The notes: generated by a model from the sequence alone, not told the origin. Shown: positions 16,634 through 34,187, counted from the stretch's first letter. The stretch: DNA of 59,217 nucleotides from Candidatus Nomurabacteria bacterium (GCA_943359485.1 CALRHR010000003.1:1-59217), one strand, 5' to 3'. Translations and numbers: made by a program.

Positions 16634-16634
16634 G

Positions 16635-16713
16635 ATAGGCGCTAGGCCCTAGGAAATTTAGGCGCTAGTTTTTTAAATTGCTAATGCCTAAAGCCTAGTT
16701 GCTTAATGCCTAC
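16635..16713. repeat. CTAGGC-type palindromic repeat (family C, copy 1)
   Basis: ATAGGCGCTAGGCCCTAGG..TTAGGCGCTAGTTTTTTAAATTGCTAATGCCTAAAGCCTAGTTGCTTAATGCCTAC. About 45 nt are near-identical to 25735-25782. Confidence 0.7.
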
Positions 16714-16735
16714 TTCTAATGTATATTAGAAGCAT

Positions 16736-16870
16736 ATGTCATTTACATATAAACCGAAAAAAAGAAAAAGAGCCAAGACTCATGGGTTTTTAGTTAGATC
16801 TAGAATCAAGACTGGCAAAAGAGTTATCAAGCGAAGGCGTCAAAAAGGTAGAAAAAAACTGACCGTGTAG
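16736..16870 (+). CDS. rpmH: 50S ribosomal protein L34 (not in the supplied ORF track)
   Basis: Hand translation gives [44 protein letters not shown]. Canonical position upstream of rnpA. Confidence 0.9.
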
Positions 16871-16875
16871 TTTTT

Positions 16876-17199
16876 ATGCTTCCTAAAAGAAACAGGGTAA
16901 ATAAAAAAGGTATAGACCTTATTTTTAAAACAGGCAAGCTTGTTATCTCCCCAAGCTTTACTTTTAAATTTATTAAAACAAAATTTTCAGCCGTGCAGAT
17001 TTCTTTTATTGTTCCTAAAAGTGTTGCCAAGTTTGCAGTTAAAAGGAATTTATTAAGAAGACTTGGATATAGAACACTAAGAAAATATATTTCTCAGTTC
17101 CCGACTGGGATAATGGGAGTGTTTGTTTTTAAAAAATATCAAGACAATATTTTAAATCTCGAAAATGAAATCAAAAACATATTTAGTAAAATTAATTAA
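16876..17199 (+). CDS. rnpA: ribonuclease P protein component
   Basis: Basic 107-aa protein (MLPKRNRVNKK.., ..AVKRNLLRRLGYR) in the conserved rpmH-rnpA-yidD-yidC order. Confidence 0.85.
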   Translation: MLPKRNRVNKKGIDLIFKTGKLVISPSFTFKFIKTKFSAVQISFIVPKSVAKFAVKRNLLRRLGYRTLRKYISQFPTGIMGVFVFKKYQDNILNLENEIKNIFSKIN

Positions 17200-17374
17200 T
17201 TTTTACCAAAAATTTATTTCCCCTGCTAATAAGTGTGTATTTTACCCATCTTGCTCTGAATACACGAAGCAAGCCATAGAAAAATACGGTTCATTAAAAG
17301 GAATCTGGTTGGGGTTTTCTCGTATTTTGCGCTGTCATCCTTGGCAGAAAAATTGTATTGATCCTTTGCGGTAA
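17165..17374 (+). CDS. yidD: membrane protein insertion efficiency factor YidD
   Basis: FYQKFISP..C.FYPSCSEYTKQAIEKYG..G..LGFSRILRCHPW signature. Confidence 0.85.
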   Translation: MKSKTYLVKLINFYQKFISPANKCVFYPSCSEYTKQAIEKYGSLKGIWLGFSRILRCHPWQKNCIDPLR

Positions 17375-17418
17375 TTATTTTTCTGGTGTTTTCCTACTTT
17401 TTCATATAGAATGAAGAA

Positions 17419-18171
17419 ATGCTAACAAGTATTTGGAATGCTGTTTTATATCAGCCTTTATTGAACGCATTGGCTTTCTTGGTTTCTATTATTCCCGGCG
17501 GGGATATTGGTTTTGCCATTATAATTCTTACTATTTTAGTGAAAATTATACTTTTCCCCCTTTCTCAAAAATCCATTCAAAGCCAGGCTGCCATGAACAT
17601 ACTCGCGCCTGAACTTGAAAAAATAAAAAAAAGTGGGACTTCCAAAGAAGAACAAGCGCGTCTAACTTTTGAGCTATACAAAACACACAAGACTAATCCG
17701 TTTTCTGGATGTTTATTGGTTTTAATCCAGATTCCAATAATTTTTGCACTCTATTATGTTTTTTTCAAAGGAATAAATTTTGAGGGTGATCTACTTTATT
17801 CTTTTATTCATGTTCCAGAAAAGGTAAATACGATGTTTTTGGGAGTTTTGGATATGGGTGGGAAAAGTTTAGTTTTAGCAGTCTTGGCAGGGGTATCTCA
17901 GTATCTACAAGCGTACTACATGCCTAAGCCAGTCTCCCCTACTCCAGTCGCTAATTCTACTCCATCTTTTGGAGAGACTTTTGGGAAAAGTATGAATATG
18001 CAAATGAAGTATGTTTTTCCATTTGTTGTTGCTTTCATTTCTTACACAATTTCTGGGGCAATTGCATTATACTGGATTACTAGTAATATATTTACTGTGG
18101 GACAACAAATCTATGTCGCTAGAGAAAAACCAAGAAATACCTTATTTGTAAAGGCTAAAATCAATGAATAA
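17419..18171 (+). CDS. yidC: membrane protein insertase YidC (short form)
   Basis: Multi-TM protein with ..ELYKTHKTNPFSGCLLVLIQIPIIFALY.. typical of YidC/Oxa1. Confidence 0.85.
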   Translation: MLTSIWNAVLYQPLLNALAFLVSIIPGGDIGFAIIILTILVKIILFPLSQKSIQSQAAMNILAPELEKIKKSGTSKEEQARLTFELYKTHKTNPFSGCLLVLIQIPIIFALYYVFFKGINFEGDLLYSFIHVPEKVNTMFLGVLDMGGKSLVLAVLAGVSQYLQAYYMPKPVSPTPVANSTPSFGETFGKSMNMQMKYVFPFVVAFISYTISGAIALYWITSNIFTVGQQIYVAREKPRNTLFVKAKINE

Positions 18172-18670
18172 AGATGAAATACAAAATTTAATAAAAGAAT
18201 TAGTGGAAAAGACTGGAGTCATGGCAACAGCGATTACCGTGAATAAAGAAACTGAGGTGAATACTTGGTTTAGAGTAGAAGTAAATGAGCCACATTTTTT
18301 TCTTGAGCGCGATGGTGAAGCGTTGCATGCTCTTAACCATCTTGTTCGTAGAATAGTGGAAAAACACCTCTCCCCAACCCCTCTCCTTGCCAAGGAGAGG
18401 GGCGAAGGGGTGAGGTCCGAGTTTGAGAACAATATTTTAATTGATATTAATGATTTTCAAAAAAAACGAGTAGAAAATATTCGTGCTGTGGCGCATATGA
18501 TGTCTGAGCGGGCAAGATATTTTAAATCAAGTATTGAAGTTGATCCAATGTCTTCTTTTGAACGAAGAGTTGTACACGAATTTTTATCTGATGCCACAGA
18601 TTTAAAGACCGAATCGGTCGGCTTTGGTCCAACTCGACGAGTGGTGATCAAATATATCGGGGCTATGTAA
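18164..18670 (+). CDS. jag: Jag/KhpB-type RNA-binding protein (KH + R3H)
   Basis: C-terminal R3H region ..MSSFERRVVHEFLSD.., and its position after yidC. Confidence 0.8.
   Translation: MNKDEIQNLIKELVEKTGVMATAITVNKETEVNTWFRVEVNEPHFFLERDGEALHALNHLVRRIVEKHLSPTPLLAKERGEGVRSEFENNILIDINDFQKKRVENIRAVAHMMSERARYFKSSIEVDPMSSFERRVVHEFLSDATDLKTESVGFGPTRRVVIKYIGAM
18365..18416. repeat. GC-rich hairpin element (family D) in frame in jag
   Basis: CACCTCTCCCCAACCCCTCTCCTTGCCAAGGAGAGGGGCGAAGGGGTGAGGT encodes HLSPTPLLAKERGEGVRS. Confidence 0.7.
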
Positions 18671-18671
18671 T

Positions 18672-18786
18672 GAGTTTGGTCTGAAATCAAATTTTTTCGG
18701 TACGGATTTTTTGAAGCTTAAAAAATCCTGAAGTTCTCGGCTCGACAGCCTCGAAACCCCTTCAAAATTTATTTCAGACCAAACTC
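18672..18786. repeat. 115-bp element closed by a perfect 16-bp inverted repeat (bidirectional terminator, MITE or RNA)
   Basis: GAGTTTGGTCTGAAAT (18672-18687) pairs with ATTTCAGACCAAACTC (18771-18786). Inner hairpin GGATTTTTT-GAAGCTT-AAAAAATCC (18704-18728). Confidence 0.55.
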
Positions 18787-20133
18787 CCAAAGAAAAGAAT
18801 CTTTTTTGTTTACAAAAAATAGATAATTTTCGTTTTCATCGAGTGCGAGTTTGATTCCGTCAATTTCTTCTCCGCCCGGAGTCGTACTTGGGTCTATTAA
18901 GAGAGTAGTATTTCCATTTTTCAAATCTATTTTCCAAAGTTGGTCGGAGAAAGATACTTCTCCTTGATACCAGGCGTCCGGGTAAGCCCCAAAAGGAATA
19001 CTCGTCGGCACAGAGCAATATACAACATCACTGACCTTACCCCAGACACATTTTTCTGGCAGGGTTCCTACCCCCAGGGTTGTTGAGTTTCCATTTCCGA
19101 TGTCGTATGTATACAACGACAAATTATTGTCGCTATAAAGAATTGTTTTTCCGTCAGGACTCATGCGCGTGGTCAATCCATTTATGTTGCCCAAAATTTT
19201 AGATGGCATACCTTCGGCTGGACTTAATCTATATGCAAAACCCGGGACATTTGCAGAAGGTTTAGTAGAGAGAGTGATTGTCTTTTCAGTCCCCCACCAA
19301 GGACTCCATTCTGTGAAAACAGAATCAAAGATTTGAGTTTTTTTGTTATCCTTAAGATTTAAGGTTATTCCAACAATCCCATTTCCATTCTCAAATAAAT
19401 AGAATATTTTCGTTGTGTCTGGAGAAATACTCATGTCTAAAATATTCCTTCTCTGGAATTCCCCCTTAAATTTTGTATTTATTATATCTGCGCCCAGGTA
19501 TTCTTTTGGCAGGGAGCCGGCGAATGATTCTATTGTCTTTTCATCTGTCCCTAAATATCGCATAACCACTACCTCTCCGTGATTGCCGAAATAAGCTTCG
19601 TGCACTTTTGGGATTGTGATATCTAAGAATTTTCTTTCTTCGATTTTGTCTGCGAATGTTTGGAAAATATTTCCTGTTTCTCTCGCTACATATCTTAATG
19701 TCGTTGCAAATTCAGTTAATGGTGGGGTTGGTTTGGGCGTCCCAGTGCCGATTTTACTACCTTCTTGGGGTGAGGTTTCAACATCGGATGGGACAGTTTC
19801 AACAGCAGTCAATATCGGCATTGGGGCGACCAGTCTTTCTTTTTGATATGTTACAAATCCAGCGATGGGCTGACTTGAAACTTTTTTCAAGTTCACTACT
19901 TGTATTTCTCCTTCGGGGGGCGGAGTGTACCCCGATACATCTACAGGAGGTGTATCCACTTTAGGTTTCTGGCCACCAGTTCCAAAAGGATTAAATTGTG
20001 AAAAGAAATTTGTTCCGGTATTGTCTCCTGCGTCTGGAGTAGTTGCGTCAGGACGGAAATACAAAAACAAAGAAACGGAAACCATGATGATTACCAGAAT
20101 TATTATTAAAAGTGTAAAATTTCTTCTTTGCAT
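18769..20133 (-). CDS. membrane-anchored hypothetical protein with TolB/PD40-like beta-propeller features
   Basis: N-terminal TM segment, Pro-rich linker, and repeated motifs such as SPDGKTILYSDNN and SPDTTKIFY. Confidence 0.45.
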   Translation of the reverse strand: MQRRNFTLLIIILVIIMVSVSLFLYFRPDATTPDAGDNTGTNFFSQFNPFGTGGQKPKVDTPPVDVSGYTPPPEGEIQVVNLKKVSSQPIAGFVTYQKERLVAPMPILTAVETVPSDVETSPQEGSKIGTGTPKPTPPLTEFATTLRYVARETGNIFQTFADKIEERKFLDITIPKVHEAYFGNHGEVVVMRYLGTDEKTIESFAGSLPKEYLGADIINTKFKGEFQRRNILDMSISPDTTKIFYLFENGNGIVGITLNLKDNKKTQIFDSVFTEWSPWWGTEKTITLSTKPSANVPGFAYRLSPAEGMPSKILGNINGLTTRMSPDGKTILYSDNNLSLYTYDIGNGNSTTLGVGTLPEKCVWGKVSDVVYCSVPTSIPFGAYPDAWYQGEVSFSDQLWKIDLKNGNTTLLIDPSTTPGGEEIDGIKLALDENENYLFFVNKKDSFLWEFGLK

Positions 20134-20142
20134 AAATTTAAT

Positions 20143-21273
20143 TTAATCAAAAGCAGAAGCACAGATAGGAATATCTCCGCCCCACGCTATTCTTTGTCCA
20201 TTTCGGTAATTAAATAATATTTTTGCGACCGCTATATTTTGTGCTGGGTCTTTTAGGACTGCTACGCAGTCATTATACTTGTTTTCCATTCCAGATTTAA
20301 GTTTGGCATCATAATAAATTCTTCCACTTGAGTTTGTTTTTATGTAGTTTACTCCATTGATTGGAGAACCGTCAGTTAATGTAAATAAATTAGCACAAGA
20401 ATTTCCACTGGAATCTTTAACATAAACACCATTAGCTAATAAATTTATTTGGAATAAACCAAAAGAAAAAGACTTACCATCTGCGCCAACATCGGTTTGA
20501 CTTGATGAAGCTGGATTTCCGCCGCTTTCGATATTGCAAAGTTTTGACATACCTTCTGCTTTTGATCCAAAGGTGCTTAAATTTGCAGTGGCACAAGGTC
20601 CAGAAGTTACTGGAGTACAGCGTGCAATATTACCAGCTGTAACAGGTTTCTGGTATACACTATTTGCTTGTACACCAACCTCAAATGTTGCTGGAGTAAT
20701 TTTAATGTCAGTTTTGAGTAAATTAGGATTTATTGTGTAAAGAAGCGTATAAGCACCGAGAATTAAAATAATTCCGAGTAAAGCTCCTTGAATTCTGTCT
20801 TTACCATGCTCTTTGCTTGACACCAACTCACTTGTCATATACTCCATACCTCCTATGACGATCATTACCACTGCCAAAACTGCGCATAGACCAATAAATA
20901 GTTTTAGCATGAGGTTTAAATAATTTCCCAGTTGATCGCCTTTAGGGTCAAAAGTTTCCAAAATTCCATTTGGACATTTGGGACCGACTTCGCAGGGTAG
21001 TGGTGCTAGAAAAGTATATTTTGGATCTGCTGTGGTTGCTGCTGCTGGGGGGGGTGTAGATGTAGGTATAGGGCCATCCCAGCGGTATTCGTTTGGATAT
21101 TTTATACAATCTTCGTAAGATTTAGAAGGATTGACTGGATCGTTTGCTCTGCGGGTTCCTATTCCTGCTCTATAACGGCATACACCACCAACTTGTGCTT
21201 GTATCTTTTCGGTAATACCAAAAAAACTTATGAAGACAATTAATATGAGAATGTATGATGAAATTTTTTTCAT
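20143..21273 (-). CDS. T4SS pilin-like (TrbC/VirB2-type two-TM hairpin) protein fused to a lytic transglycosylase-like domain
   Basis: Signal peptide and central ..LFIGLCAVLAVVMIVIGGMEYMTS..GALLGIILILGAYTLLYTINPNLL. The C-terminus has CNIESGGNP..GLFQIN, an SLT-like ES..GLxQI motif. Confidence 0.55.
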   Translation of the reverse strand: MKKISSYILILIVFISFFGITEKIQAQVGGVCRYRAGIGTRRANDPVNPSKSYEDCIKYPNEYRWDGPIPTSTPPPAAATTADPKYTFLAPLPCEVGPKCPNGILETFDPKGDQLGNYLNLMLKLFIGLCAVLAVVMIVIGGMEYMTSELVSSKEHGKDRIQGALLGIILILGAYTLLYTINPNLLKTDIKITPATFEVGVQANSVYQKPVTAGNIARCTPVTSGPCATANLSTFGSKAEGMSKLCNIESGGNPASSSQTDVGADGKSFSFGLFQINLLANGVYVKDSSGNSCANLFTLTDGSPINGVNYIKTNSSGRIYYDAKLKSGMENKYNDCVAVLKDPAQNIAVAKILFNYRNGQRIAWGGDIPICASAFD

Positions 21274-22248
21274 TTAAAATTCTATACTTATTTCTTTATT
21301 TGTCGTCTGAAAAATTCTGTCCATATTTTCTATTACGAGCTTTAATTTAGATGTTCCAGAAACTCCATCTTGCACTTGTAGTGGCATAAAGTTTTTTCTG
21401 TAATTTGGCACAGGAACTGTGTTGTCGTTTATAGACCAATTCCATATTAGTCTAGGGTTCTGTAATTCTTTTGGTGAAATAAAATACGGAACGGCTTCCA
21501 CCACCTCTTTTCCTTCGATCCTGTATGGGTCGGTGAGCGCGTGTTCAAAGACGGTTCCCATTTTTGAATTATTTTTATAAAAGACTATTTTTGGTTCGGT
21601 TGTTGTTACATCCAGACTAGCTTCAGCTGTGAATTTTTGATCAGTTGTCGAAGCTACTACTCCTACATTGTTCGAATTTTCTAAATAGTCATTGGTATAA
21701 GTATAAGAGTTTTTACCATAACCAGAAGCTTCTTGGTCATTCGTGTAATCCTTCTTCCAGGTATAAGTCATATTTTTTGAGTTAACCAAACTTCCATCTA
21801 CACTGGTTTTTACTTCTGGCATGGCTATTACTTTTATTTCGCTGTCAGCTACAGGAAGAGCCTTGCCTTTGTAAAATGGTGGAACAAAAGAGTCTGTTGC
21901 TTGCCAGAGCAAGATCATCTCATTTGGTCGTATGGTTATAGTTTTTTCAAGTTCGCCTTCCGGTAAGGATATAAGAGCTCGGACACTGGAAAAACTTCCA
22001 GCTGGTGGAGCTTTTAATAAAAATGTTTTTTTGCCAACCCCAGATAAAATTACAGTGCCGTTAAGAGACCAACTTATTTGGACACTATCTAAATTGTTGG
22101 CATAACTTGACAGGGTTATGCTGATGTTTTCACCAGGCACCGGGTTAGGGGGCACCATATTTACTAAAATACTACTAGACGAAGCAGAAAAAACTTTTGT
22201 TGCGAACAATGTGAGCATTAAACACAATAATAAAAATTTAAATTTCAT
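21274..22248 (-). CDS. secreted hypothetical protein (beta-rich, Ig-like repeats likely)
   Basis: Signal peptide MKFKFLLLCLMLTLFATKVFS. No catalytic motif recognised. Confidence 0.45.
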   Translation of the reverse strand: MKFKFLLLCLMLTLFATKVFSASSSSILVNMVPPNPVPGENISITLSSYANNLDSVQISWSLNGTVILSGVGKKTFLLKAPPAGSFSSVRALISLPEGELEKTITIRPNEMILLWQATDSFVPPFYKGKALPVADSEIKVIAMPEVKTSVDGSLVNSKNMTYTWKKDYTNDQEASGYGKNSYTYTNDYLENSNNVGVVASTTDQKFTAEASLDVTTTEPKIVFYKNNSKMGTVFEHALTDPYRIEGKEVVEAVPYFISPKELQNPRLIWNWSINDNTVPVPNYRKNFMPLQVQDGVSGTSKLKLVIENMDRIFQTTNKEISIEF

Positions 22249-22259
22249 AACTCCTTTTA

Positions 22260-24110: not shown

Positions 24111-24116
24111 TGCATT

Positions 24117-24185
24117 CTAGGCTCTAGGCTCTAGGCTCTAGGCATTAGCATTGTGCTAGCGCCTAAGGCCTAAGGCCTAGCTGCC
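24117..24185. repeat. CTAGGC-type palindromic repeat (family C, copy 2)
   Basis: CTAGGCTCTAGGCTCTAGGCTCTAGGCATTAGCATTGTGCTAGCGCCTAAGGCCTAAGGCCTAGCTGCC. The arms are imperfect reverse complements. Confidence 0.75.
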
Positions 24186-24818
24186 TATATTAATTTTCCC
24201 TTCTACTTCTCCGGGGTTAAAGACTTTATAAAATACTTCTACCACTTCTTCTGTGCCCAGTTGAACCGATTTTATACCACAACGAGAGAGTCCTTGTTCG
24301 ATTACTCCCACCCTTTCTTCCAGTTGGGATCTTTTTTCTTCAAAATCTGCTTCTTTTGCTACTTGTGCTTCTTCTCTACTTCTACCCCCGAATAATCTTT
24401 TCAATATTCCAGAATCTGTTTTAAAGGTAGTACTGGTATAAGGCACGACTACGAAAAAACTTTTAGTCATAATATTGACCGACTCAGTAAAATTTCGAAT
24501 AAACTCGATGTATTCTTTTGTTTGCAGTTTAAGTAAAGCTTCACTCTGTACTTTCATTCGCTCTTCTAGGGTTAAAAGATATGGTCTTATGTCGAGTCTT
24601 CTGCTCTGTACTGATATTTGTACTGGGAAATCTAAAGTATTTAGAAAACTTTGGAATTGAAAAATGGTGGCTTTTTGTTCATCATCCGATTTGAGTGATA
24701 AATTAATAGAATTGGCCAGAACTATAGCCCGCAAGTCACCGTCTTTGAGCACAATCACACCATCACGGACTTCCTTGATCGGTACAAACTCTTGAGTTGC
24801 TTTTGCATTTAATGCCAT
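24177..24818 (-). CDS. VirB4 N-terminal-domain-like protein (probable detached N-terminal part of VirB4)
   Basis: ..TQEFVPIKEVRDGVIVLKDGDLRAIVLANSINLSLKSDDEQKATIFQFQSFLNTLDFPVQI.. resembles the N-terminal domain of Gram-positive VirB4 ATPases. The stop codon lies in repeat copy 2. Confidence 0.5.
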   Translation of the reverse strand: MALNAKATQEFVPIKEVRDGVIVLKDGDLRAIVLANSINLSLKSDDEQKATIFQFQSFLNTLDFPVQISVQSRRLDIRPYLLTLEERMKVQSEALLKLQTKEYIEFIRNFTESVNIMTKSFFVVVPYTSTTFKTDSGILKRLFGGRSREEAQVAKEADFEEKRSQLEERVGVIEQGLSRCGIKSVQLGTEEVVEVFYKVFNPGEVEGKINIGS

Positions 24819-24826
24819 AAATATTT

Positions 24827-24899
24827 CTAGGCTTTGGGCTCTAGGCGTTAGGCTTTAGCTTTTTTTGTGCTAGAGCCTAGTGCCTAAGGCCTAGCTGCC
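24827..24899. repeat. CTAGGC-type palindromic repeat (family C, copy 3)
   Basis: CTAGGCTTTGGGCTCTAGGCGTTAGGCTTTAGCTTTTTTTGTGCTAGAGCCTAGTGCCTAAGGCCTAGCTGCC. Confidence 0.75.
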
Positions 24900-25325
24900 T
24901 GTGTTCTGATGTTTATTTAAATCTAACACATCTAGACTCCAAGCCAAATCTCGTAATTTGTTTCCACCTAATCGTGCCGCATTTTGAAGCATTTGCGTTT
25001 GTTTACTTATTTCGGTAGTTTTTAGTGTATCTTCATTTGGCTCTTTTGTGCGTCTTTTCCATATATACAGTTTGCTCTGTAAAAGAAAATTAAATCCAGC
25101 AGCAACCATATTAATAAAAGGTTTATTATTTGGTCGGTAGAAAGTAAGAGCTAATGAAAATCCGGCGATAACCACAATCGGGATAGAGCCCCACATAATT
25201 CCGAGCAATCTATACAAAACAAAACACAAACCAGCCCCGCCGGCGAGGTAGACGAATTCTCTGAAGGTAAACGGACCAAAAATTTTGTCTTCTATGTCTA
25301 AAAATTGTGGAACTTTAAATTGCAT
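24891..25325 (-). CDS. PrgI-family (VirB3-like) T4SS membrane protein
   Basis: MQFKVPQFLDIEDKIFGPFTFREFVYLAGG.. followed by two TM segments, the classical PrgI N-terminus. The last codons and stop lie in repeat copy 3. Confidence 0.7.
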   Translation of the reverse strand: MQFKVPQFLDIEDKIFGPFTFREFVYLAGGAGLCFVLYRLLGIMWGSIPIVVIAGFSLALTFYRPNNKPFINMVAAGFNFLLQSKLYIWKRRTKEPNEDTLKTTEISKQTQMLQNAARLGGNKLRDLAWSLDVLDLNKHQNTGS

Positions 25326-25330
25326 AACGC

Positions 25331-25386
25331 AGGCTCTAGGCTTTAGGCGCTAGGCCCTAGTTGGACTAATTACTAGGTTCTAGCTG
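25331..25386. repeat. CTAGGC-type repeat (family C, copy 4)
   Basis: AGGCTCTAGGCTTTAGGCGCTAGGCCCTAG..ACTAATTACTAGGTTCTAGCTG. Confidence 0.7.
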
Positions 25387-25725
25387 TGAAATTAATTTAT
25401 TCAACATTTTCATAACTTCTTCCAGTATGGAATCTACTTTATTATAATCTAATTTTATTGTTTTGGGTAATTTTTTTACTATTACCAACTGGGTTTCTAT
25501 TTCAGCGCCAGATGCAAAAGCAATAAGCAAAAACCTTTTAAATTCAATATTTCCTCCACGCATTTTTCCTTCCGCTATATTTGAAGGTATGGATACCGTT
25601 GCTCTTCGGATTTGTGAAGTTAAACCGTAAATTTCTTCCCTAGGAAAATTACTTGTAAGTTCGTATATGGCAATCACTAGATCTATAGATTTTTGCCAAA
25701 TTGTTAAATCTTTATAAGTTTTCAT
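25366..25725 (-). CDS. four-helix-bundle protein (23S rRNA intervening-sequence protein family; Avd-like fold)
   Basis: MKTYKDLTIWQKSIDLV..IYELT..FP.EE.YGLTSQIRRA.VSIPSNIAEG.. is the hallmark of this family. Confidence 0.85.
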   Translation of the reverse strand: MKTYKDLTIWQKSIDLVIAIYELTSNFPREEIYGLTSQIRRATVSIPSNIAEGKMRGGNIEFKRFLLIAFASGAEIETQLVIVKKLPKTIKLDYNKVDSILEEVMKMLNKLISQLEPSN

Positions 25726-25730
25726 GATAT

Positions 25731-25817
25731 AGGATCTAGCTTTTTGAATTGCTAATGCCTAACGCCTAGTTGCCTGATTAATTACTGCTAAAGCCTAGAG
25801 CCTAACGCCTAGTGCCT
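25731..25817. repeat. CTAGGC-type repeat (family C, copy 5)
   Basis: ..TCTAGCTTTTTGAATTGCTAATGCCTAACGCCTAGTTGCCTGATTAATTACTGCTAAAGCCTAGAGCCTAACGCCTAGTGCC. Confidence 0.75.
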
Positions 25818-25824
25818 TCCCTCA

Positions 25825-26526: not shown

Positions 26527-26530
26527 AATT

Positions 26531-26613
26531 TAGGCCTTAGGCCGCTAGGCTCTAGGCCTTAGCTTTTTTAATAATAACACAATTTTTCCCTACTAGTGCC
26601 TAAAGCCTAGAAC
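26531..26613. repeat. CTAGGC-type repeat (family C, copy 6)
   Basis: TAGGCCTTAGGCCGCTAGGCTCTAGGCCTTAGCTTTTTTAATAATAACAC..CTACTAGTGCCTAAAGCCTAGAACC. Confidence 0.75.
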
Positions 26614-27019
26614 CTGTGTCTACAAATGCTGAATAATCTCCACCAGAGAGGATGAAATCAAGATTTTGCTTTGGAGTTGTATTTCTGGTTGGCAGATTTT
26701 TTCTAATCTTTTCTTCTAGAAGGTTGCTCATTGGAGTGAATATTTTTTCCAATGCTTCGTTGGCTATCTTTTCTGCTTCAGCTTTGCTGGTGCCGACATT
26801 GTTTTCAATATTAGTTGCATAAAAATCGCCATCTTCAATTCCAACTAAAACTAATAGAGTTTCCACTTGCAGGTCGTTTGTCTCATTTTCATCAAGTAGA
26901 TATTTTTTACCAATTTTTTCGATAATCATTCCCCAATTCAAAGAATTTATCACCTCTTGTGCCTCTTTTGGCAGTTTCCCTACTTCGTCTTTAATTATTT
27001 GTTTTAATTTGTCTGTCAT
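26600..27019 (-). CDS. hypothetical protein (paralogue of the N-terminal domain of 25825..26526)
   Basis: Shared pattern: ..LP.E.Q..I....W...I..........E...L..ET.L.L.G....... The stop codon and last 4 residues lie in repeat copy 6. Confidence 0.45.
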   Translation of the reverse strand: MTDKLKQIIKDEVGKLPKEAQEVINSLNWGMIIEKIGKKYLLDENETNDLQVETLLVLVGIEDGDFYATNIENNVGTSKAEAEKIANEALEKIFTPMSNLLEEKIRKNLPTRNTTPKQNLDFILSGGDYSAFVDTGSRL

Positions 27020-27025
27020 AAATTT

Positions 27026-29362: not shown

Positions 29363-29368
29363 AATGTT

Positions 29369-32191
29369 TTATGGTTGCGGATTGGGTTCGGATTGTGGCA
29401 GTGGCTCATTTGGAACCCAATCTCCTCCCACGGTATTACATTCGTCTTTTGTTATTCCCGATTCTTCCGGAAATACAAATCCCGTAGATCTATCAGGGAC
29501 ATTACTGCAAGTACCTAAATCAGAACCAATGGTATCATTCGGCAAAATATAATCGTTTCCTATCTGGGTTGTCCCGGGCAGGTTCCCCTTGTAGTCTAGG
29601 ACATTTGCTTTCCATATAATATTGCAACTCAATTCTATATCAACAGTATAATTACCAAAGATGCCACCCCAGCGCCTCCACTTCAAGACATCGTTTGCAT
29701 TTACATATGGAACTTCCGGATGGGTTATAGGATTCCCACTTGAACCAGAAAGTGCTCCTGCGACACCTCCAACAACTACACTAATACCGCCAGTAGCAAC
29801 AGCCCCAGCGCCTCCAAGAATTGCACCCAAAATTCCACGCCCAGGATCATCGTTTTTGTGGTCAAAAGTTTCATGATTATATCCTCCTTTAATGGGCGCA
29901 TCGCAATAAATTTCCTTCTCCGTATTTCCAATGGTGGTGCTGCCAGTTCTTGCTGTGAGGGTAGAAAATGGTCCGCCTTGCGTACTCCAGCCTTTTACTG
30001 GCCTTTCTGCATTACATTGTGTCGTCAGTGAAATTAACTTAGCTAATTTTTCTTTGGCGATAAACAAGTCATTTTGTATTTCATTTACAGTATTACTATT
30101 AGAGACTCCAATTTTGTTTGCATTATATTGTTTTCTTAACGAAATTAAAGTTTTTTCATTTCCAGAGTCTGAAGGTGGTTGGATGATTTTCCCTGCTGAA
30201 TCAAATGTAGAAATAGCGTTCAAGCCCGCATTAATTGCTTGTAGCCTTACCAGTGCTTGAGCCCTTGTTCGTCTTCTGTCTGTCAACTCGTCTGACTGTT
30301 GCGCCAGCTTCCCTATTTCATCTACGGCATCCATATAGATCGCTGAATTTGGAAGTTCGGTCATCATGTTATTAATTATCCAATCTTTTAGAAATTTTAC
30401 AGCAAAGTTTAATTCTTTAAGAGCCAGGTCAGCTTGAGCCGACTTATTTCCATCACTATCACTTTGTTTTCCTTGAAGTTTTTGGCTGTTTCTATTCATT
30501 TCATTCATCAATCTTTCTTGCCATCCCAAGTCTGGACCTGGTTGACAGATGTCGAGCAGTCTGGCTTGTGGCCAGATCTTTCCTAGCATTTGTGTTAGGC
30601 CCGGGCTACATGCATTGTTTACTGTTACTCCACCATTCTGTGTATTTATAACAGGGTTACATGTGACTGGATTATCTATTAACCAAATTTCTGCTTCTGT
30701 ATTTTTTATGTCACCGGGGATGTATTGAGCTCCTGGTGGGCAATCCCAATTTTTCAGAATTTGGTTATAAATACAGTTTCGGCTGTTGCCCGTTTCTTCG
30801 GTAACTGTCGTTATTTCTCCTGTTTCATCTCCTGTAGTTTTTGTGGTGATAATGGTTCTTCCTTCTAATTGTTTTTTGAATTCACTCAACACAACTTCTT
30901 CATCTGGACCCATATTCCAAGCATCATTGGTGCCATCACCTGGACCGCCAAGTTTTTGCCCCTCGTACTCCCATTCATCTACAGAGGGTCTTGGATTTAC
31001 TTTAGTTGCGAGAGCACTTAAACCATCTCCTATAAACTTATTTAACAAAGCATCTACAATGGCTGATATGCTGGTACCTACTGCCATGGCTAATTCACTT
31101 TGTCTATAACTTGAACTAAGAGCGGTCATAATCTGGTTACCGACTACTGAGCCTGGGGTTGTAACTTTCAATCCACCTGGACAGGTATTACTTTCTGCCC
31201 AGTCAGATTTTTCTTTATCAAAATCTTGGTCATATTTAGTATCGTAGGCTTCTCGAGCTTGGATAGAGGCTTGAGATTCTCTTTGTCTTTCAAGATTTTC
31301 AATTACTTCTTCATTTTCTCCAGTTGTAGGATTATATCTATAAGTAGTACTCTGCTCGGTATATGTTTCATATTGTATATCTGGTGGATCATAAACCGAA
31401 TTATTATGAAAAGTTGGCTTTTGGAATTCGTTTTTGCCGTTGTTATAGCTAGGATTTGTTGGGCAAGTTTTGGGTGATAAAAATCCCAAACCCTGCTGGA
31501 GTGTATCTTTTACTTGATTTGCTTTGCTAACTAGCGTACCGTCGAGTCGATTGGCTAGTTCTTCTGTTGCTAGCATTCTGTAACCCAAGTAATTATTTTG
31601 TGGATACTGAGTGTTGATTAAAAATCCATTCCATCCACCGATGTCAAAGTCAGTCTGGAAGCGGTAGAGCAACTGTGGGTCTCTGATAGCCTTACTCAGT
31701 GTATACTGCGCGTTGTCGCTAAATTGTCTTTTGTATGCGCCTATTGTGCTTAGAGCAAAGGCTTTTCCAAATGGAAACTTGCTATTGTCATAGCCGGTCA
31801 TATCTACAAAATCCTTGATCTGGAATTTGGCGATGTCTTTAAAAAAAGAACTGGGGTTTTGTACGAAAAGTGGAGAGCCATGAAAACCGGAATTTATCCA
31901 GTTTATAGTGCTTGTGGTCATTTTCTGCAAAAATCTTTTAGCAACAGTCATGACTATTTGTTTTAAAACTTCTTGGGCAACATTTTTTATTGAAATTGAA
32001 GTGGAAGTTACTGTTGACGCTGTGTTTGTTCCAAGTAAAACTGTTCTGATAAAACCATTAGGTCCTAAATCAAAAACCGGCCAGGCTGCTTGTGTCTGTT
32101 TTGGTGTAGAAAATAAAACAGTGGGTACTATTATTGCAACAATGAGAAGAGAGGAGATTAATTTTGTAATTTTATTGTTTTTAGCTAGCAT
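29369..32191 (-). CDS. large membrane-anchored extracellular hypothetical protein (940 aa)
   Basis: N-terminal TM/signal anchor, many paired Cys residues, and a C-terminal Gly-rich hydrophobic segment GILGAILGGAGAVATGGISVVVGGVAGAL. No enzyme motif recognised. Confidence 0.5.
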   Translation of the reverse strand: MLAKNNKITKLISSLLIVAIIVPTVLFSTPKQTQAAWPVFDLGPNGFIRTVLLGTNTASTVTSTSISIKNVAQEVLKQIVMTVAKRFLQKMTTSTINWINSGFHGSPLFVQNPSSFFKDIAKFQIKDFVDMTGYDNSKFPFGKAFALSTIGAYKRQFSDNAQYTLSKAIRDPQLLYRFQTDFDIGGWNGFLINTQYPQNNYLGYRMLATEELANRLDGTLVSKANQVKDTLQQGLGFLSPKTCPTNPSYNNGKNEFQKPTFHNNSVYDPPDIQYETYTEQSTTYRYNPTTGENEEVIENLERQRESQASIQAREAYDTKYDQDFDKEKSDWAESNTCPGGLKVTTPGSVVGNQIMTALSSSYRQSELAMAVGTSISAIVDALLNKFIGDGLSALATKVNPRPSVDEWEYEGQKLGGPGDGTNDAWNMGPDEEVVLSEFKKQLEGRTIITTKTTGDETGEITTVTEETGNSRNCIYNQILKNWDCPPGAQYIPGDIKNTEAEIWLIDNPVTCNPVINTQNGGVTVNNACSPGLTQMLGKIWPQARLLDICQPGPDLGWQERLMNEMNRNSQKLQGKQSDSDGNKSAQADLALKELNFAVKFLKDWIINNMMTELPNSAIYMDAVDEIGKLAQQSDELTDRRRTRAQALVRLQAINAGLNAISTFDSAGKIIQPPSDSGNEKTLISLRKQYNANKIGVSNSNTVNEIQNDLFIAKEKLAKLISLTTQCNAERPVKGWSTQGGPFSTLTARTGSTTIGNTEKEIYCDAPIKGGYNHETFDHKNDDPGRGILGAILGGAGAVATGGISVVVGGVAGALSGSSGNPITHPEVPYVNANDVLKWRRWGGIFGNYTVDIELSCNIIWKANVLDYKGNLPGTTQIGNDYILPNDTIGSDLGTCSNVPDRSTGFVFPEESGITKDECNTVGGDWVPNEPLPQSEPNPQP

Positions 32192-32216
32192 TTATTTATA
32201 TTATATAGATTCTTAC

Positions 32217-33134
32217 TTAATTATTCAATTTTTGTTGTATCGTAATCAAAAGACTGTCGATAGATGACTCCAGGGTGTCAGTATTTGGCGCATATTGAGC
32301 TATTGCGCTTAAGGCGACAATGGTGTCGCTCTCATATAGCCTTATGTCGCTTATGTTTTCTAGTATCTTTTCTAAGATGTTTACTACAGCTAAGTGTTGC
32401 GTAGAGAGGGATTTTGGTACGGGAATCTTTACCATAGCAGTTACTGTATCTCTCATATTTTCTACAATGAGGTCAAGTTTTGATAAGACATTGACATCAA
32501 CATTGTCTTCATCAATAAAAAATTCTTGCAAGACATCAATAACTGTATAATTTGCTGGATTTTTTATTTTAATATTCTTTAACGCATTATTGTAAGTTGT
32601 GATAGTTTGTTTGCTATTATCATCTAGTATTTTCAATTCGGAGAGTAAAAATACTTTTCTAGTAGGGGTGTTCTTTATATGTTCTGCTAATGATTCTCCT
32701 AATTTATTTATTGTAGCTTGGTCCATTTCTCCGGCTTGGTTTAGGGTGGCGACAGTAGAAAAGAATTCTCTGGAAAATTTATCTGTTTCTGTTAGTGTTT
32801 CTGTTTCTCCTGTGCTCGTATTTCCTTCTCCGCCCAAACTCATCTCTTGTGCAGATTTTAACTTTGCTATTTCGACACTGTCAGAAGTTCCATCATCATT
32901 TGTGTCTTTCTTTAATGGGTCTGTGCCCCACAAGGTTTCTTCCCAGTCCAATACTCCATCTCCATCTGTATCTTTTATTATTATATTCTCCAGTGTTTCG
33001 TTGCCGTAAGCTAAACCTTCTTGACTAAGTTGGTTCTGTGGATTTTGAAACACTGTTTTGTTCTTTAAGAAAAAAAGAACAACAAGAAAAACTATCGCGC
33101 AGGCGAGTAAGAGCACTACTTTTTTATGTTGCAA
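32217..33134 (-). CDS. membrane-anchored hypothetical protein with thrombospondin type 3-like Ca-binding repeats
   Basis: N-terminal TM segment. DTDGDGVLDWEETLWGTDPLKKDTNDDGTSD matches the DxDxDG calcium-binding repeat pattern. Confidence 0.5.
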   Translation of the reverse strand: MQHKKVVLLLACAIVFLVVLFFLKNKTVFQNPQNQLSQEGLAYGNETLENIIIKDTDGDGVLDWEETLWGTDPLKKDTNDDGTSDSVEIAKLKSAQEMSLGGEGNTSTGETETLTETDKFSREFFSTVATLNQAGEMDQATINKLGESLAEHIKNTPTRKVFLLSELKILDDNSKQTITTYNNALKNIKIKNPANYTVIDVLQEFFIDEDNVDVNVLSKLDLIVENMRDTVTAMVKIPVPKSLSTQHLAVVNILEKILENISDIRLYESDTIVALSAIAQYAPNTDTLESSIDSLLITIQQKLNN

Positions 33135-33242
33135 CCAAATTAATTTAATTATGCTTTAATTATAACAATAAACGAGGAGCATAAACAAGTTTATTTGTTT
33201 AATGTCCGAGTGTCATTGTTATATGGTACTCCATATACACTG

Positions 33243-33278
33243 GCTAGGCCCTAGGCGCTAGGCTTTAGGCACTAGCTA
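33243..33278. repeat. CTAGGC-type repeat (family C, copy 7)
   Basis: GCTAGGCCCTAGGCGCTAGGCTTTAGGCACTAGCTA. It overlaps the rsmA stop and last three codons (..ASA*). Confidence 0.7.
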
Positions 33279-34146
33279 AAGCAATCCAGTCCGCGAGTTC
33301 TAGGTTTTCTGGCCTTTTGTCGCCAAATTTTACTAGAGATGTTTCAGGAATAATACCTTTCAAGTTACTTGAGAGCTTTTTTCTCTTATGCGCAAAGCCG
33401 GCTTTTACTATTTCCCAAAATTTATGTTCATCTATTTTATTCCCCTCCCCCTTAACAAGGGGGAGGTTGGGAGGGGGTGAACTTAAGAACCTCACCCCAG
33501 CCCTCTCCTTATCAAGGAGAGGGGGATAGTCTTCAAAAGCTTTGCGCGAAATATTTTTTATAGAAATAATAGCTGAGTCCACTTTCGGGGCAGGCGAGAA
33601 ATACCGTGCAGGTACTTTCATGATCAGCTTTGGGTTCCCATATGCTTTGACTGAAATCGAAAGAATACTCTCTTTGTTGCCTGCCCCGCCGTGGCGTGGG
33701 TCTCTGGCGATTATTCTGCGCGCCACTTCGTGCTGAACCATTAGCACCATGAGTTCGGGCTGATATTTTTCGGTTAAAAATTTTTTTAAAATTGCGCCGG
33801 TAATGTTGTAGGGAATATTGGCGATGATTTTATAGGCGCTAGGCTTTAGGCTGTAGGCGCTAGCTTGAAAATTCAAGATATCTTCGTTTCTTAAAATCAG
33901 TTTTCCAGATTTAATTTGCTCACTAAATTTATTTTCTAAAAATGTGAACAATCTATTATCTTTTTCAATTGCAATAACTTGAATTCCAGTTTCCAATAGT
34001 TTGTTTGTAAGGGCTCCCGTACCTGGACCTATTTCTAAAATTATGTCATCTTTTTTTATTTCACCGGCTTCAATAATTTTTCGCAATGCCGGCTCTGACT
34101 TTAAAAAGTTTTGACCTAAAGATTTTTTCGCTTTGTAATTTTTCAT
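33265..34146 (-). CDS. rsmA: 16S rRNA (adenine1518/1519-N6)-dimethyltransferase RsmA/KsgA
   Basis: KKSLGQNFL, SAM motif ILEIGPGTGALT, and NIPYNITG. It carries extra in-frame segments (see repeats). Confidence 0.9.
   Translation of the reverse strand: MKNYKAKKSLGQNFLKSEPALRKIIEAGEIKKDDIILEIGPGTGALTNKLLETGIQVIAIEKDNRLFTFLENKFSEQIKSGKLILRNEDILNFQASAYSLKPSAYKIIANIPYNITGAILKKFLTEKYQPELMVLMVQHEVARRIIARDPRHGGAGNKESILSISVKAYGNPKLIMKVPARYFSPAPKVDSAIISIKNISRKAFEDYPPLLDKERAGVRFLSSPPPNLPLVKGEGNKIDEHKFWEIVKAGFAHKRKKLSSNLKGIIPETSLVKFGDKRPENLELADWIALASA
33442..33526. repeat. two tandem GC-rich hairpin elements (family D) in frame in rsmA
   Basis: CCTCCCCCTT-AAC-AAGGGGGAGG (33444-33466) and CCCTCTCCTT-ATC-AAGGAGAGGG (33501-33523). 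Together they encode PPLLDKERAGVRFLSSPPPNLPLVKGEG. Confidence 0.7.
33832..33865. repeat. CTAGGC-type repeat (family C, copy 8) in frame inside rsmA
   Basis: ATAGGCGCTAGGCTTTAGGCTGTAGGCGCTAGC is read on the minus strand as ASAYSLKPSAY, in a frame that avoids TAG. Confidence 0.7.
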
Positions 34147-34155
34147 TTTGATTTT

Positions 34156-34178
34156 CTAGTGCCTAGCGCCTAAAGACT
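34156..34178. repeat. CTAGGC-type repeat (family C, short copy 9)
   Basis: CTAGTGCCTAGCGCCTAAAGACTAATTACT between pcrA and rsmA. Confidence 0.55.
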
Positions 34179-34187
34179 AATTACTAT

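What the first reader, a model, noticed from the sequence alone, without database searches (positions are those of the whole stretch)
16635..34178. CTAG-based hexamer-phased palindromic repeat family (CTAGGC / GCCTAA) punctuating the T4SS-like operon
Nine loci are built from phased units such as ctaggctctaggctctaggctctaggc ... gcctaaggcctaaggcctag. They are 16635-16713, 24117-24185, 24827-24899, 25331-25386, 25731-25817, 26531-26613, 33243-33278, 33832-33865 and 34156-34178. The long copies share one architecture. A left arm of NTAGGC units is followed by TAGCTTTTTT and an AT-rich spacer that often contains TAATTACT or GCTAATGCC, then a right arm of GCCTAR units. The arms are imperfect reverse complements, with 4-6 bp helices separated by 2-nt mismatches, so each copy can fold into a long interrupted hairpin. 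Segments 16665-16712 and 25735-25782 are near-identical over ~45 nt although they lie 9 kb apart. Six copies fill consecutive intercistronic gaps of the T4SS-like cluster. The repeat supplies the stop codon and last residues of four ORFs (..IGS*, ..TGS*, ..TGSRL*, ..ASA*), and one copy is read in frame inside rsmA. CTAG is usually a depleted tetranucleotide in bacterial genomes, so a CTAG-rich dispersed family is unexpected. I do not recognise it as a described REP/BIME/MITE type.
Basis: seen in the sequence. Interest (0 to 1): 0.8.

Follow-up and report, generated by a model that had tools for sequence, protein, structure and literature searches.

The report
Heptamer-armed hairpins tied to IVS-protein gene
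The CTAGGC repeats are real: they are the 7-base-phased arms of hairpin elements that belong with a small four-helix-bundle gene otherwise known from 23S rRNA intervening sequences, and this pairing of tandem-heptamer arms with that gene recurs across many bacterial phyla without, as far as I could find, having been described as a rule.

Summary
TAGGCNNTAGGC occurs 25 times against 0.08 expected, only in the nine listed loci. Four loci are complete hairpins (z -3.1 to -4.4). The others are single arms that bracket two genes. One is rsmA.

In about 85 syntenic Patescibacteria loci the same gaps are empty (0-16 nt), hold 70-134 nt hairpins, or hold IVP cassettes of about 450 nt. The arms come in at least four tandem-unit flavours (TAGGC, TAGCT, AATTACG, AAAGTT). 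Flavour tracks IVP subtype without exception.

IVP is under purifying selection (dN/dS 0.04-0.29). In unrelated viral contigs, and in 8 of 8 finished plasmids, IVP homologues are also flanked by tandem 7-8 nt arrays, mostly inverted. The Coxiella 23S IVS has heptamers upstream of its S23p ORF.

Best reading: IVS-like palindromic elements embedded in transcripts, with ORF-less derivatives. RNase III processing and IVP binding to the heptamers are inferred, not shown. No Y1 transposase was found. Verdict: a new variant of a known kind.

The parts
16630..16716 (-). Complete ORF-less hairpin between dnaA (15211-16557, -) and rpmH (about 16737-16871, +). A DnaA-box-like TGTGGATAA (16625-16633) abuts it.
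   Evidence: (dG -30.2, z -3.2).
24111..24190 (-). Complete ORF-less hairpin in the gap between the TraC-like gene and VirB4. There are 4 + 4 heptamer units. The first unit supplies ..IGS* of the TraC-like protein.
   Evidence: (dG -42, z -4.4). The gap is empty in L123, L126 and L028.
24822..24902 (-). Complete ORF-less hairpin in the PrgI | TraC-like gap. It supplies ..TGS* of PrgI.
   Evidence: (dG -32.3, z -4.4). The gap is 0-16 nt in about 49 of 82 related loci.
25331..25360 (-). 3' arm of the IVP cassette (GCCTA units on the sense strand). It lies between the IVP stop and the PrgI start.
25366..25725 (-). IVP gene: a 119-aa four-helix-bundle protein (PF05635 23S_rRNA_IVP; TIGR02436; closest solved structure 2GSC).
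   Evidence: (E 1.6e-34). dN/dS is 0.06-0.10 against L028 and L186.
25731..25775 (-). Inner half-hairpin directly upstream of the IVP start: two TAGGC units, TAGC, an A-rich loop and a degenerate partner. It is 39/49 identical to 16665-16712.
25788..25817 (-). Outer 5' arm of the IVP cassette (3 TAGGC units on the sense strand). It is complementary to 25331-25360.
26527..26616 (-). Complete ORF-less hairpin between the 139-aa and 233-aa ORFs. It supplies ..TGSRL*. L165 carries an orthologous copy.
   Evidence: (dG -32.7, z -3.1).
33243..33278 (-). Four-unit GCCTA-type array (sense strand) overlapping the rsmA stop (..LASA*).
33832..33865 (-). Four-unit GCCTA-type array read in frame inside rsmA (residues 94-105, QASAYSLKPSAY), just before the conserved YKIIANIPYNITGA.
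34156..34178 (-). TAGGC-type array of 2-3 units, 10-32 nt upstream of the rsmA start codon. It is a possible partner of either rsmA array.
25776..25786 (-). AGTAATTARTC motif. Three exact copies occur in the window (also 25364-25374 and 34175-34185), all next to arrays. Two of them flank the inner half-hairpin plus IVP as a direct repeat.
   Evidence: Whether this is a target-site duplication or an internal motif of the element is unresolved.

Best explanation
The CTAGGC repeats are the arms of a family of palindromic elements that resemble intervening sequences (IVS).

The full-length member is a cassette: a 5' arm of tandem NTAGGCN heptamers, then a four-helix-bundle IVP/S23p gene (PF05635/TIGR02436), then a 3' arm of the complementary heptamers. 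The 70-90 nt hairpins are ORF-less derivatives in which an A-rich loop replaces the gene.

Shown:
- The elements sit in transcribed DNA, always in one orientation.
- They are present or absent at orthologous gaps in related genomes.
- Each unit carries TAG or TAA, and the 7-nt phase puts a stop in all three frames within three units, so an upstream ORF that reads into the array ends at once.
- Arm sequence and IVP subtype change together.
- IVP is under purifying selection.

Inferred, by analogy with 23S rRNA IVSs that RNase III excises in Salmonella, Leptospira and Coxiella:
- In the polycistronic RNA the two arms pair into a stem of about 22-30 bp with a mismatch every 7 bp. That stem would be a processing or stability site that cuts or punctuates the T4SS mRNA and brackets the IVP message. 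I rate this about 0.5.
- The pentameric IVP ring reads the tandem heptamers (conserved 5-nt core, free 2-nt spacer, typically 3-5 units), as TRAP reads its triplet repeats. Binding would serve autoregulation and/or maintenance and spread of the element. I rate this about 0.4.

The insertion chemistry is unknown. The overall confidence given (0.65) is for the identity of the family as IVS/S23p-type cassettes with ORF-less derivatives, not for the two inferred steps.
For: Local anatomy.
- The IVP gene is bracketed by complementary arms.
- The loop of the ORF-less copies (..TAGC / A-rich / GCTAR..) equals the cassette minus its ORF.

Turnover in about 85 syntenic loci.
- Gap lengths are bimodal: 0-16 nt, 70-134 nt, and about 420-530 nt.
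- At least five sequence flavours occupy the same PrgI|TraC gap.
- The states are scattered among nearest neighbours on a TraC tree. The window has TAGGC, L123 is empty or has the long-inverted-repeat (IR) type, and L125 has AAAGT.
- L164 looks like a footprint that keeps both element ends. L144 and L125 carry half elements.

Covariation of protein and arms.
- All 18 IVP genes are flanked by arms.
- Within a flavour IVP identity is at least 69%; between flavours it is at most 62%.
- The two closest protein types (56-62% identical) have the closest units, TAGGC and TAGCT.
- dN/dS is 0.04-0.29 while dS is saturated, yet the arm cores are conserved.

Generality.
- IVP homologues on viral contigs are flanked by heptamer arrays with other units, usually inverted (TAGGGAG, GTTGGCT, GTAGTCT, GAACGTT and others).
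- All 8 finished plasmids checked show tandem 7-8 nt arrays next to the gene: Nostoc (2), Calothrix, Geminocystis, Pseudanabaena, Picosynechococcus, Riemerella and Gemmatirosa.
- N. punctiforme pNPUN01 has an IVP cassette and, 0.5 kb away, an ORF-less hairpin built from the same unit.
- The Coxiella 23S IVS has terminal inverted repeats cut by RNase III and three tandem heptamers just upstream of its S23p ORF (PMC4990558).

Polarity.
- All 10 unique TAGGC hairpins in T4SS operons share one orientation.
- In 120 cross-phylum loci, 28 have a TAGGC array followed by a GCCTA array within 600 nt, and none has the reverse order.

The flavour of the coding array in rsmA matches the flavour of the hairpins or IVP on the same contig in the window, the L028 genome, L240 and L241.
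Against: - No experiment supports RNase III cleavage or IVP-heptamer binding. No rnc gene lies in the window.
- Covariation of IVP and arms could reflect simple co-inheritance of one cassette plus concerted evolution of tandem repeats, with no recognition involved.
- Only 3 of 120 cross-phylum TAGGC loci have an IVP gene within the 8 kb fetched. Most arrays are therefore not next to an IVP.
- L104 carries TAGGC arms with an IVP only about 30% identical to the window's.
- Some loci mix flavours: L138, L152, L204, L207 and L242.
- AAAGT-type hairpins barely beat shuffled controls (mean z -1.0).
- A 119-aa helical bundle has no catalytic domain for transposition, and no clear target-site duplication was found.
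- Only about 68 kb of the source genome was visible, and copies are confined to 16.6-34.2 kb.
Confidence: 0.65

Rival explanations
1. These are host-selected RNA punctuation marks. In this reading they are intercistronic hairpins that stabilise or segment the T4SS polycistronic mRNA (a REP-like 3'-end protection or processing role), and the IVP gene is merely one more cistron bracketed by them.
For: - The positions lie exactly between stop and start codons.
- All copies share one orientation.
- Four copies are stable.
- PNPase is encoded in the window.
- The rsmA arrays have partner arms that could form long-range stems.
Against: - About half of the related genomes have empty gaps of 0-16 nt at the same sites, so the hairpins are dispensable.
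- Flavours differ among nearest relatives.
- Footprints and half elements exist.
- The same architecture flanks IVP genes in unrelated operons, plasmids and rRNA.
Confidence: 0.15
2. These are double-stranded or cruciform DNA sites for a DNA-binding protein: iteron- or operator-like arrays that control replication or T4SS transcription, possibly bound by IVP itself.
For: - The units are tandem with a conserved core and a free spacer.
- One copy abuts a DnaA-box-like sequence in the dnaA-rpmH spacer.
- The chirality is fixed: a TAGGC arm is always followed by a GCCTA arm.
Against: - Most copies lie inside an operon, between coding regions or within them, and not at promoters.
- A 7-bp phase does not keep sites on one face of B-DNA.
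- The orientation bias is relative to transcription.
- The classical relatives lie inside rRNA transcripts and act as RNA.
Confidence: 0.08
3. These are ordinary heptanucleotide simple-sequence repeats made by polymerase slippage. Their occurrence in inverted pairs and next to IVP genes would be incidental.
For: - Heptanucleotide tandem repeats are reported as the commonest long SSR class in prokaryotes (Mrazek et al. 2007, as cited in PMC4679880).
- Copy number of the Coxiella heptamers varies among strains.
- Arrays reach 19 units in other phyla.
Against: - Arms come as complementary pairs with one fixed polarity (28 to 0).
- Copies share loop and terminal sequences beyond the units.
- The same unit recurs at many sites in one genome and matches the IVP subtype.
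Confidence: 0.05
4. These are REP/REPIN-type elements mobilised by a RAYT (Y1 transposase), or MITEs derived from an IS.
For: They are imperfect palindromes that are dispersed and intergenic, with a TAG-containing head. Presence/absence polymorphism is seen.
Against: - No Y1_Tnp or RAYT, and no other transposase, was found among the window ORFs scanned.
- The only protein consistently nested in the arms is IVP.
- The arms are tandem heptamers, not the 20-40 nt REP stem.
- No consistent target-site duplication was found.
Confidence: 0.04
5. These are intrinsic terminators or attenuators inside the operon.
For: The stems are GC-rich relative to a 37% GC genome. One intra-arm stem followed by TTTTTT is flagged on the antisense strand (26544-26563).
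Against: - On the sense strand no hairpin is followed by a U-tract.
- The T-runs lie in the loop and on the non-transcribed strand.
- The downstream genes are essential parts of the same cluster.
Confidence: 0.03

Closest known systems
23S rRNA intervening sequences that carry an S23p ORF (Leptospira, Coxiella, Xanthomonas, Brucella)
   Same: - The same protein family is nested in the loop (PF05635/TIGR02436; 2GSC at E 2.7e-20).
[quoted passage not shown]
- The ORF is in the sense orientation of a host transcript.
- ORF-less short forms exist.
- Tandem heptamers lie just upstream of the ORF in Coxiella.
   Different: - These elements are not in rRNA. They sit in intercistronic gaps of a T4SS-like operon, in the dnaA-rpmH spacer, and around and inside rsmA.
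- The whole arms, not only a short stretch, are built of tandem heptamers.
- Several copies lie close together.
- RNase III excision is untested here.
Cyanobacterial STRR and other heptanucleotide tandem repeats (long SSRs; the TAACTGA repeats of Beggiatoaceae)
   Same: - The units are tandem 7-nt repeats with genome-specific sequences, mostly intergenic and often just upstream of start codons.
- The distribution is patchy across Cyanobacteria, Bacteroidota and other phyla.
   Different: - Here the arrays come as inverted pairs that form hairpins and are tied to an IVP gene.
- To my knowledge the STRR literature treats them as direct repeats of unknown function, with no associated protein.
REP / BIME / REPIN elements with RAYT
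   Same: They are short imperfect palindromes in intergenic regions of operons, transcribed with the operon, and variably present.
   Different: There is no RAYT. The arms are tandem heptamers. The associated gene is a non-catalytic helical bundle.
Rickettsia palindromic elements (RPE)
   Same: Palindromic repeats are tolerated in frame inside protein-coding genes (rsmA here).
   Different: The rsmA array adds no length relative to relatives with other flavours. It is a short heptamer array, not a 100-150 nt element.
TRAP-RNA recognition and DGR Avd (works-like comparisons only)
   Same: - For TRAP: an oligomeric ring, tandem repeats with a conserved core and free spacers, and a unit number close to the subunit number.
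- For Avd: IVP shows weak homology to Avd, which is a pentameric nucleic-acid-binding bundle.
   Different: There is no evidence of binding. No reverse transcriptase lies nearby. IVP scores far below the Avd equivalog cutoff (24.6 against 80 bits).

Membership tests
23S rRNA IVS (S23p type) | Inserted in a 23S rRNA helix (9, 25 or 45) | tested here: not met
   No rRNA lies in the window. Rfam finds only 4 tRNAs. The elements lie between or inside protein genes.
23S rRNA IVS (S23p type) | Bordered by complementary sequences that form a stem | tested here: met
   Arms 25788-25817 and 25331-25360 are complementary and bracket the ORF. The ORF-less copies fold with z -3.1 to -4.4.
23S rRNA IVS (S23p type) | Loop encodes an S23p / four-helix-bundle protein | tested here: met
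   PF05635 at E 1.6e-34. TIGR02436 at 113.8 bits against a cutoff of 24. 2GSC at E 2.7e-20.
23S rRNA IVS (S23p type) | Excised from the transcript by RNase III | not testable with these tools
   This needs RNA end-mapping or an in vitro cleavage assay.
Heptanucleotide tandem repeats (STRR / long SSR) | Head-to-tail repeats of a 7-nt unit, at least about 3 copies, mostly non-coding | tested here: met
   TRF gives period 7 at all the major loci. Two arrays are coding.
REP/REPIN + RAYT | A Y1 (RAYT) transposase gene associated with the repeats | tested here: not met
   No Y1_Tnp hit among the window ORFs scanned. The rest of the genome was not available.
MITE | Terminal inverted repeats plus a target-site duplication, derived from an IS that has a transposase | tested here: inconclusive
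   Inverted arms are present. AGTAATTARTC flanks the IVP segment as a direct repeat, but it also occurs beside the rsmA arm. No parent IS was seen.
Integron attC cassettes | An IntI integrase with attI next to an array of cassettes ending in attC sites with a GTTRRRY core | tested here: not met
   The only tyrosine recombinase (49933-50871) is Xer-like and about 24 kb away. No attC core lies at the boundaries (read directly from the sequence).
Intrinsic terminator | GC-rich stem followed by a U-tract on the transcribed strand | tested here: not met
   No sense-strand site at any hairpin. Only one weak antisense match.
DGR (Avd accessory protein) | An Avd equivalog next to a reverse transcriptase and a TR/VR pair | tested here: not met
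   NF033474 at 24.6 bits against a cutoff of 80. No RT domain in the window ORFs scanned.

The most novel reading that the evidence does not exclude
S23p/IVP four-helix-bundle proteins are sequence-specific readers of tandem heptamer arrays. The protein and its arrays would then form a widespread, unrecognised class of transcript-embedded elements that are rewritten in concert within a genome, even inside an essential coding region such as the rsmA linker. This would give a protein partner and a mechanism to the long-noted excess of heptanucleotide tandem repeats (STRR / long SSR) in bacteria, and a function to a large orphan family.
Probability: 0.3. Interest if true: 0.9.

Novelty: new variant of a known kind. 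Interest (0 to 1): 0.72.

Why it matters
Three puzzles have been treated separately:
- 23S rRNA intervening sequences with an orphan S23p ORF.
- The very large "four helix bundle protein" family, TIGR02436, of unknown function.
- The heptanucleotide tandem repeats that are the commonest long simple repeats in bacteria.

The window and the comparisons made here suggest these are parts of one thing: a small helical-bundle gene bracketed by inverted arrays of a 7-nt unit, with ORF-less hairpin derivatives nearby.

If the protein reads the heptamers, that is directly testable with one purified 119-aa protein and a few oligonucleotides. It would explain the phase, the core-plus-spacer design and the genome-specific unit sequences.

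For candidate-phyla-radiation (Patescibacteria) genomes, it also shows that the conserved T4SS-like operon and rsmA are hot spots for rapid turnover of such elements.

Tried and rejected
1. Rfam at gathering thresholds over the whole window gave only four tRNAs. No known RNA family covers the hairpins.
2. The Y1 transposase / RAYT link was checked and nothing was found. PADLOC gave no defence-system hit for IVP.
3. The terminator reading was rejected: no sense-strand terminator-like site.
4. I expected IVP genes next to most of the 120 cross-phylum TAGGC arrays. Only 3 have one (L028, L104, L052), even after an iterated profile search. Adjacency is not the rule for ORF-less arrays.
5. I first inferred that hairpin 26527-26616 split one gene, because L028 has a fused 312-aa ORF. 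I retracted this. L125, L126 and L128 have two separate ORFs with short gaps.
6. I looked for a target-site duplication. AGTAATTARTC flanks the IVP segment, but it also sits beside the rsmA arm, so it may be part of the element. Filled and empty junctions are too diverged to define an insertion site.
7. 'One flavour per genome' does not hold strictly. Seven loci mix two flavours.
8. Extending the contig by about 9 kb found no further copies.
9. Literature searches for TIGR02436 or S23p together with heptameric repeats returned only the Coxiella remark. The searchable library lacks most subscription papers (for example Mazel 1990 and Ralph & McClelland 1993), so prior description cannot be excluded.
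10. No control scan with other 5-mers was run on the genome collection. The excess of TAGGC arrays over other heptamers across phyla is therefore not established. Only their inverted-pair polarity is.

Full report

Yes. The window is 37% GC. The nine loci carry phased NTAGGC or GCCTAN units exactly where stated.
- The two-unit pattern TAGGCNNTAGGC occurs 25 times on both strands, against 0.08 expected from dinucleotide shuffles. Every hit lies in the nine loci.
- Tandem Repeats Finder gives period 7 throughout. The family is heptamer-phased: a 5-6 nt core plus a 1-2 nt free spacer. It is not hexamer-phased.
- Folding the transcribed (minus) strand shows four complete hairpins: 16630-16716, 24111-24190, 24822-24902 and 26527-26616. 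They have dG -30 to -42 kcal/mol and z -3.1 to -4.4, with about 6-bp helices separated mostly by single mismatches.
- The other five loci do not beat shuffled controls. They are single arms or composites.
- The claims about stop codons and C-terminal residues, and about the in-frame copy in rsmA, are correct.
- CTAG is not depleted in this window.

**2. Surroundings**

The region is chromosomal and lies next to the origin. The gene order is dnaN, dnaA | rpmH, rnpA, yidD, yidC, jag. A minus-strand T4SS-like cluster follows (pilin-like, VirB4/TraG P-loop, TraC-like, PrgI), then large unknown ORFs, rsmA and a UvrD-like helicase.

The gene at 25366-25725 is a 119-aa PF05635 "23S rRNA intervening sequence protein" (IVP).
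- PF05635 matches at E 1.6e-34. TIGR02436 scores 113.8 bits against a cutoff of 24.
- The closest solved structure is the Xanthomonas S23p 2GSC, described as a homopentamer of four-helix bundles in PMC4990558.
- The 'copies' at 25331-25386 and 25731-25817 are its flanks. An outer 5' arm (25788-25817) is complementary to a 3' arm (25331-25360). An extra half-hairpin sits just upstream of the start codon.

rsmA is bracketed in the same way. A TAGGC-type array lies 10-32 nt upstream of its start and a GCCTA-type array overlaps its stop. A third array lies inside the gene.

None of the window ORFs scanned against Pfam matches a Y1 transposase, a reverse transcriptase or RNase III.

**3. Comparison with relatives**

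The TraC-like protein has thousands of homologues at 76-91% identity. Sources name them Nomurabacteria, Parcubacteria or Paceibacterota. I collected about 85 syntenic loci.
- **Gap lengths.** At three orthologous positions the lengths are bimodal: 0-16 nt, 70-134 nt, or about 420-530 nt.
- **What fills the long gaps.** The long gaps are hairpins or IVP cassettes. Their arms come in different 'flavours' at the same site:
  - TAGGC heptamers: window, L138, L165, L177, L186.
  - AAAGTT/AACTTT units: L125, L126, L146 and others.
  - AATTACG heptamers: L130, L168, L176, L180.
  - TAGCT/AAGCTAA heptamers: L145, L188, L204.
  - A non-tandem long inverted repeat: L133, L139, L154 and others.
- **Turnover.** On a TraC tree these states are scattered among nearest neighbours. 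L164 keeps only the two outer ends of a TAGGC hairpin in a 15-nt gap, which looks like a footprint. L144 and L125 hold half elements. The hairpins are therefore gained, lost and replaced on a short evolutionary scale.
- **Folding.** TAGGC, TAGCT, AATTACG and IR types fold well beyond shuffles (mean z -3.3 to -5.6). The AT-rich AAAGT type hardly does.

**4. The link to IVP**
- All 18 IVP genes in these loci are flanked by arms. Arm flavour follows protein subtype without exception.
- Identity is at least 69% within a flavour and at most 62% between flavours. The two most similar subtypes (56-62%) have the most similar units, TAGGC and TAGCT.
- IVP evolves under purifying selection (dN/dS 0.04-0.29). 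Synonymous sites are saturated, yet the 5-nt cores of the arms are kept. The arms are therefore constrained or continually homogenised.
- The ORF-less loop (..TAGC, A-rich, GCTAR..) is what remains if the ORF is removed from the cassette.
- All ten distinct TAGGC hairpins in T4SS operons, and all IVP genes, have the same orientation relative to transcription.

**5. Generality**

The hits span Acidobacteriota, Bacteroidota, Cyanobacteriota, Planctomycetota, Verrucomicrobiota, Pseudomonadota, Chloroflexota and several Patescibacteria, at 32-73% GC.
- In 28 loci a TAGGC array is followed within 600 nt by a GCCTA array. In none is the order reversed.
- Three of these pairs enclose an IVP gene.

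Searching the other way, IVP homologues on viral contigs are flanked by 7-nt arrays with quite different units, usually inverted. ORF-less arrays of the same unit lie nearby.

In finished plasmids of cultured strains, 8 of 8 four-helix-bundle genes show tandem 7-8 nt arrays beside them. Several of these genes sit between co-oriented operon genes (cas6|cas4, cas10|cmr3).

N. punctiforme pNPUN01 has an IVP flanked by TCAGGAG x7.6 and CTGACTC x4.6. An ORF-less hairpin of the same unit lies 0.5 kb away, along with other inverted heptamer pairs.

The Coxiella paper reports a 23S IVS bordered by inverted repeats and cut by RNase III, with three tandem GACAGAT heptamers directly upstream of the S23p ORF (PMC4990558).

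I found no paper that states the association as a rule. The library is incomplete.

**6. rsmA**

Homologues range from 251 to 360 aa. The linker before YKIIANIPYNITGA is hypervariable, and in many homologues the peptide is what a heptamer array of one flavour or another would encode in frame:
- SAYGLKPSAY from GCCTA units.
- TNYELRNY from AATTACG units.
- ESYKVKSYKV from AAAGT units.
- ESYKLKAKSY from AGCTA units.

On contigs that hold both rsmA and the T4SS cluster, the flavours agree:
- Window: TAGGC in both.
- L028 genome: TAGGC in both.
- L240: AAAGT in both.
- L241: TAGCT in both. Here a second array overwrites a conserved stretch (KLLASSCQLIA) without a length change and pairs with the linker array (dG -44).

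L240 still has a TAGGC remnant upstream of rsmA. Either this linker is a repeatedly hit hot spot for whichever family is active, or arrays are converted in concert. I cannot distinguish the two.

**7. How it most likely works**

Shown:
- The cassette architecture.
- One orientation in transcribed DNA.
- Turnover at orthologous sites.
- Covariation of protein and arms.
- A selected ORF.
- A stop triplet in every unit. Because 7 = 2x3+1, three units close all three frames, so upstream ORFs that run into an array end within a few codons.

Inferred:
- The arms pair in the polycistronic RNA into a stem of about 22-30 bp that RNase III can cut, as in rRNA IVSs.
- The pentameric IVP reads the tandem heptamers, which have a conserved core and a free spacer. 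Arrays next to IVP genes have a median of about 4-5 units.

The orientation bias may simply reflect selection. In the opposite orientation an arm stem followed by a T-run would face the transcript.

How copies spread is unknown.

**8. Limits**
- Taxonomic labels are those of MAG submitters.
- My related loci were chosen around one operon.
- Only about 68 kb of the source genome was seen, and all copies lie within 16.6-34.2 kb.
- No control for other heptamers was run on the genome collection.
- No biochemical evidence exists.

**9. Verdict**

The feature is real and statistically overwhelming.

It is best filed as an IVS/S23p-type palindromic element family with ORF-less derivatives, living in mRNA operons of a Patescibacteria genome rather than in rRNA. 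This is a new variant of a known kind. Beyond this window, the association of tandem-heptamer inverted arms with four-helix-bundle genes appears general and unreported.

Noticed in passing
window 33440-33530 (minus strand, inside rsmA): A GC-rich (52% in a 37% GC window) triple-hairpin segment is read in frame as about 31 residues (DYPPLLDKERAGVRFLSSPPPNLPLVKGEGN), with dG -51.6 kcal/mol. It is absent from the L036 rsmA. L240 and L241 carry different proline/glycine-rich insertions at the same site. This is a second, unrelated palindromic element family using rsmA as a tolerant site.
   Followed up: partly
L133, L139, L154, L178, L192, L197 (PrgI|TraC gap); L123 700-811: A different hairpin element with long non-tandem arms (TCCCGTTAGAAGCCGCGGTCGC ... 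GCGACCTGCTTCTAACGGGA, z about -6) occupies the same gaps in relatives. Its left end supplies the upstream stop (TAG) and its right end abuts the next ATG.
   Followed up: partly
rsmA homologues P0125, P0142, P0190, P0218, P0124, P0192, P0154: The same rsmA linker also hosts longer in-frame insertions that recur between genomes (for example ..ERTLGRSGDDGQRKFSAENFRGES.. and ..PLLISPLAGGE..). This suggests further families of small coding-tolerated repeats in Patescibacteria.
   Followed up: no
window 15053-15068 and 16625-16633: DnaA-box-like sequences occur at two places: GTGGATAA in tandem downstream of dnaA, and TGTGGATAA directly abutting the hairpin in the dnaA-rpmH spacer. One element copy therefore sits in a likely oriC region.
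   Followed up: no
L235 (Pseudanabaena plasmid) and L236 (Picosynechococcus plasmid): Four-helix-bundle genes with heptamer or octamer arms are inserted between cas6 and cas4, and between cas10 and cmr3, co-oriented with the cas genes. The Pseudanabaena arrays reach 11-16 units.
   Followed up: no
L240 2240-2273: A two-unit TAGGC remnant (CTTAGGCTCTAGC + A-run) lies upstream of rsmA in a genome whose other arrays are all of the AAAGT flavour. This hints at flavour replacement over time.
   Followed up: no
window 38644-38724: A 42-bp unit is repeated 1.9 times (84% match) inside the 976-aa ORF of unknown function at 37737-40667.
   Followed up: no
window 42914-42945: A 16-bp palindromic unit, TGTTTCACGAGAAACA, is repeated twice just upstream of the UPF0102-family gene (42480-42905) and next to a cluster of four tRNA genes (42247-43407).
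   Followed up: no
L100 3305-3580 and L055 1910-2340 (MAG labelled Clostridiales): TAGGC and related TAGGG heptamer arms enclose a 190-230 nt GC-rich nested palindrome (GTCATCCCGA...TCGGGATGAC) instead of an ORF. The arms can therefore bracket other small elements.
   Followed up: no
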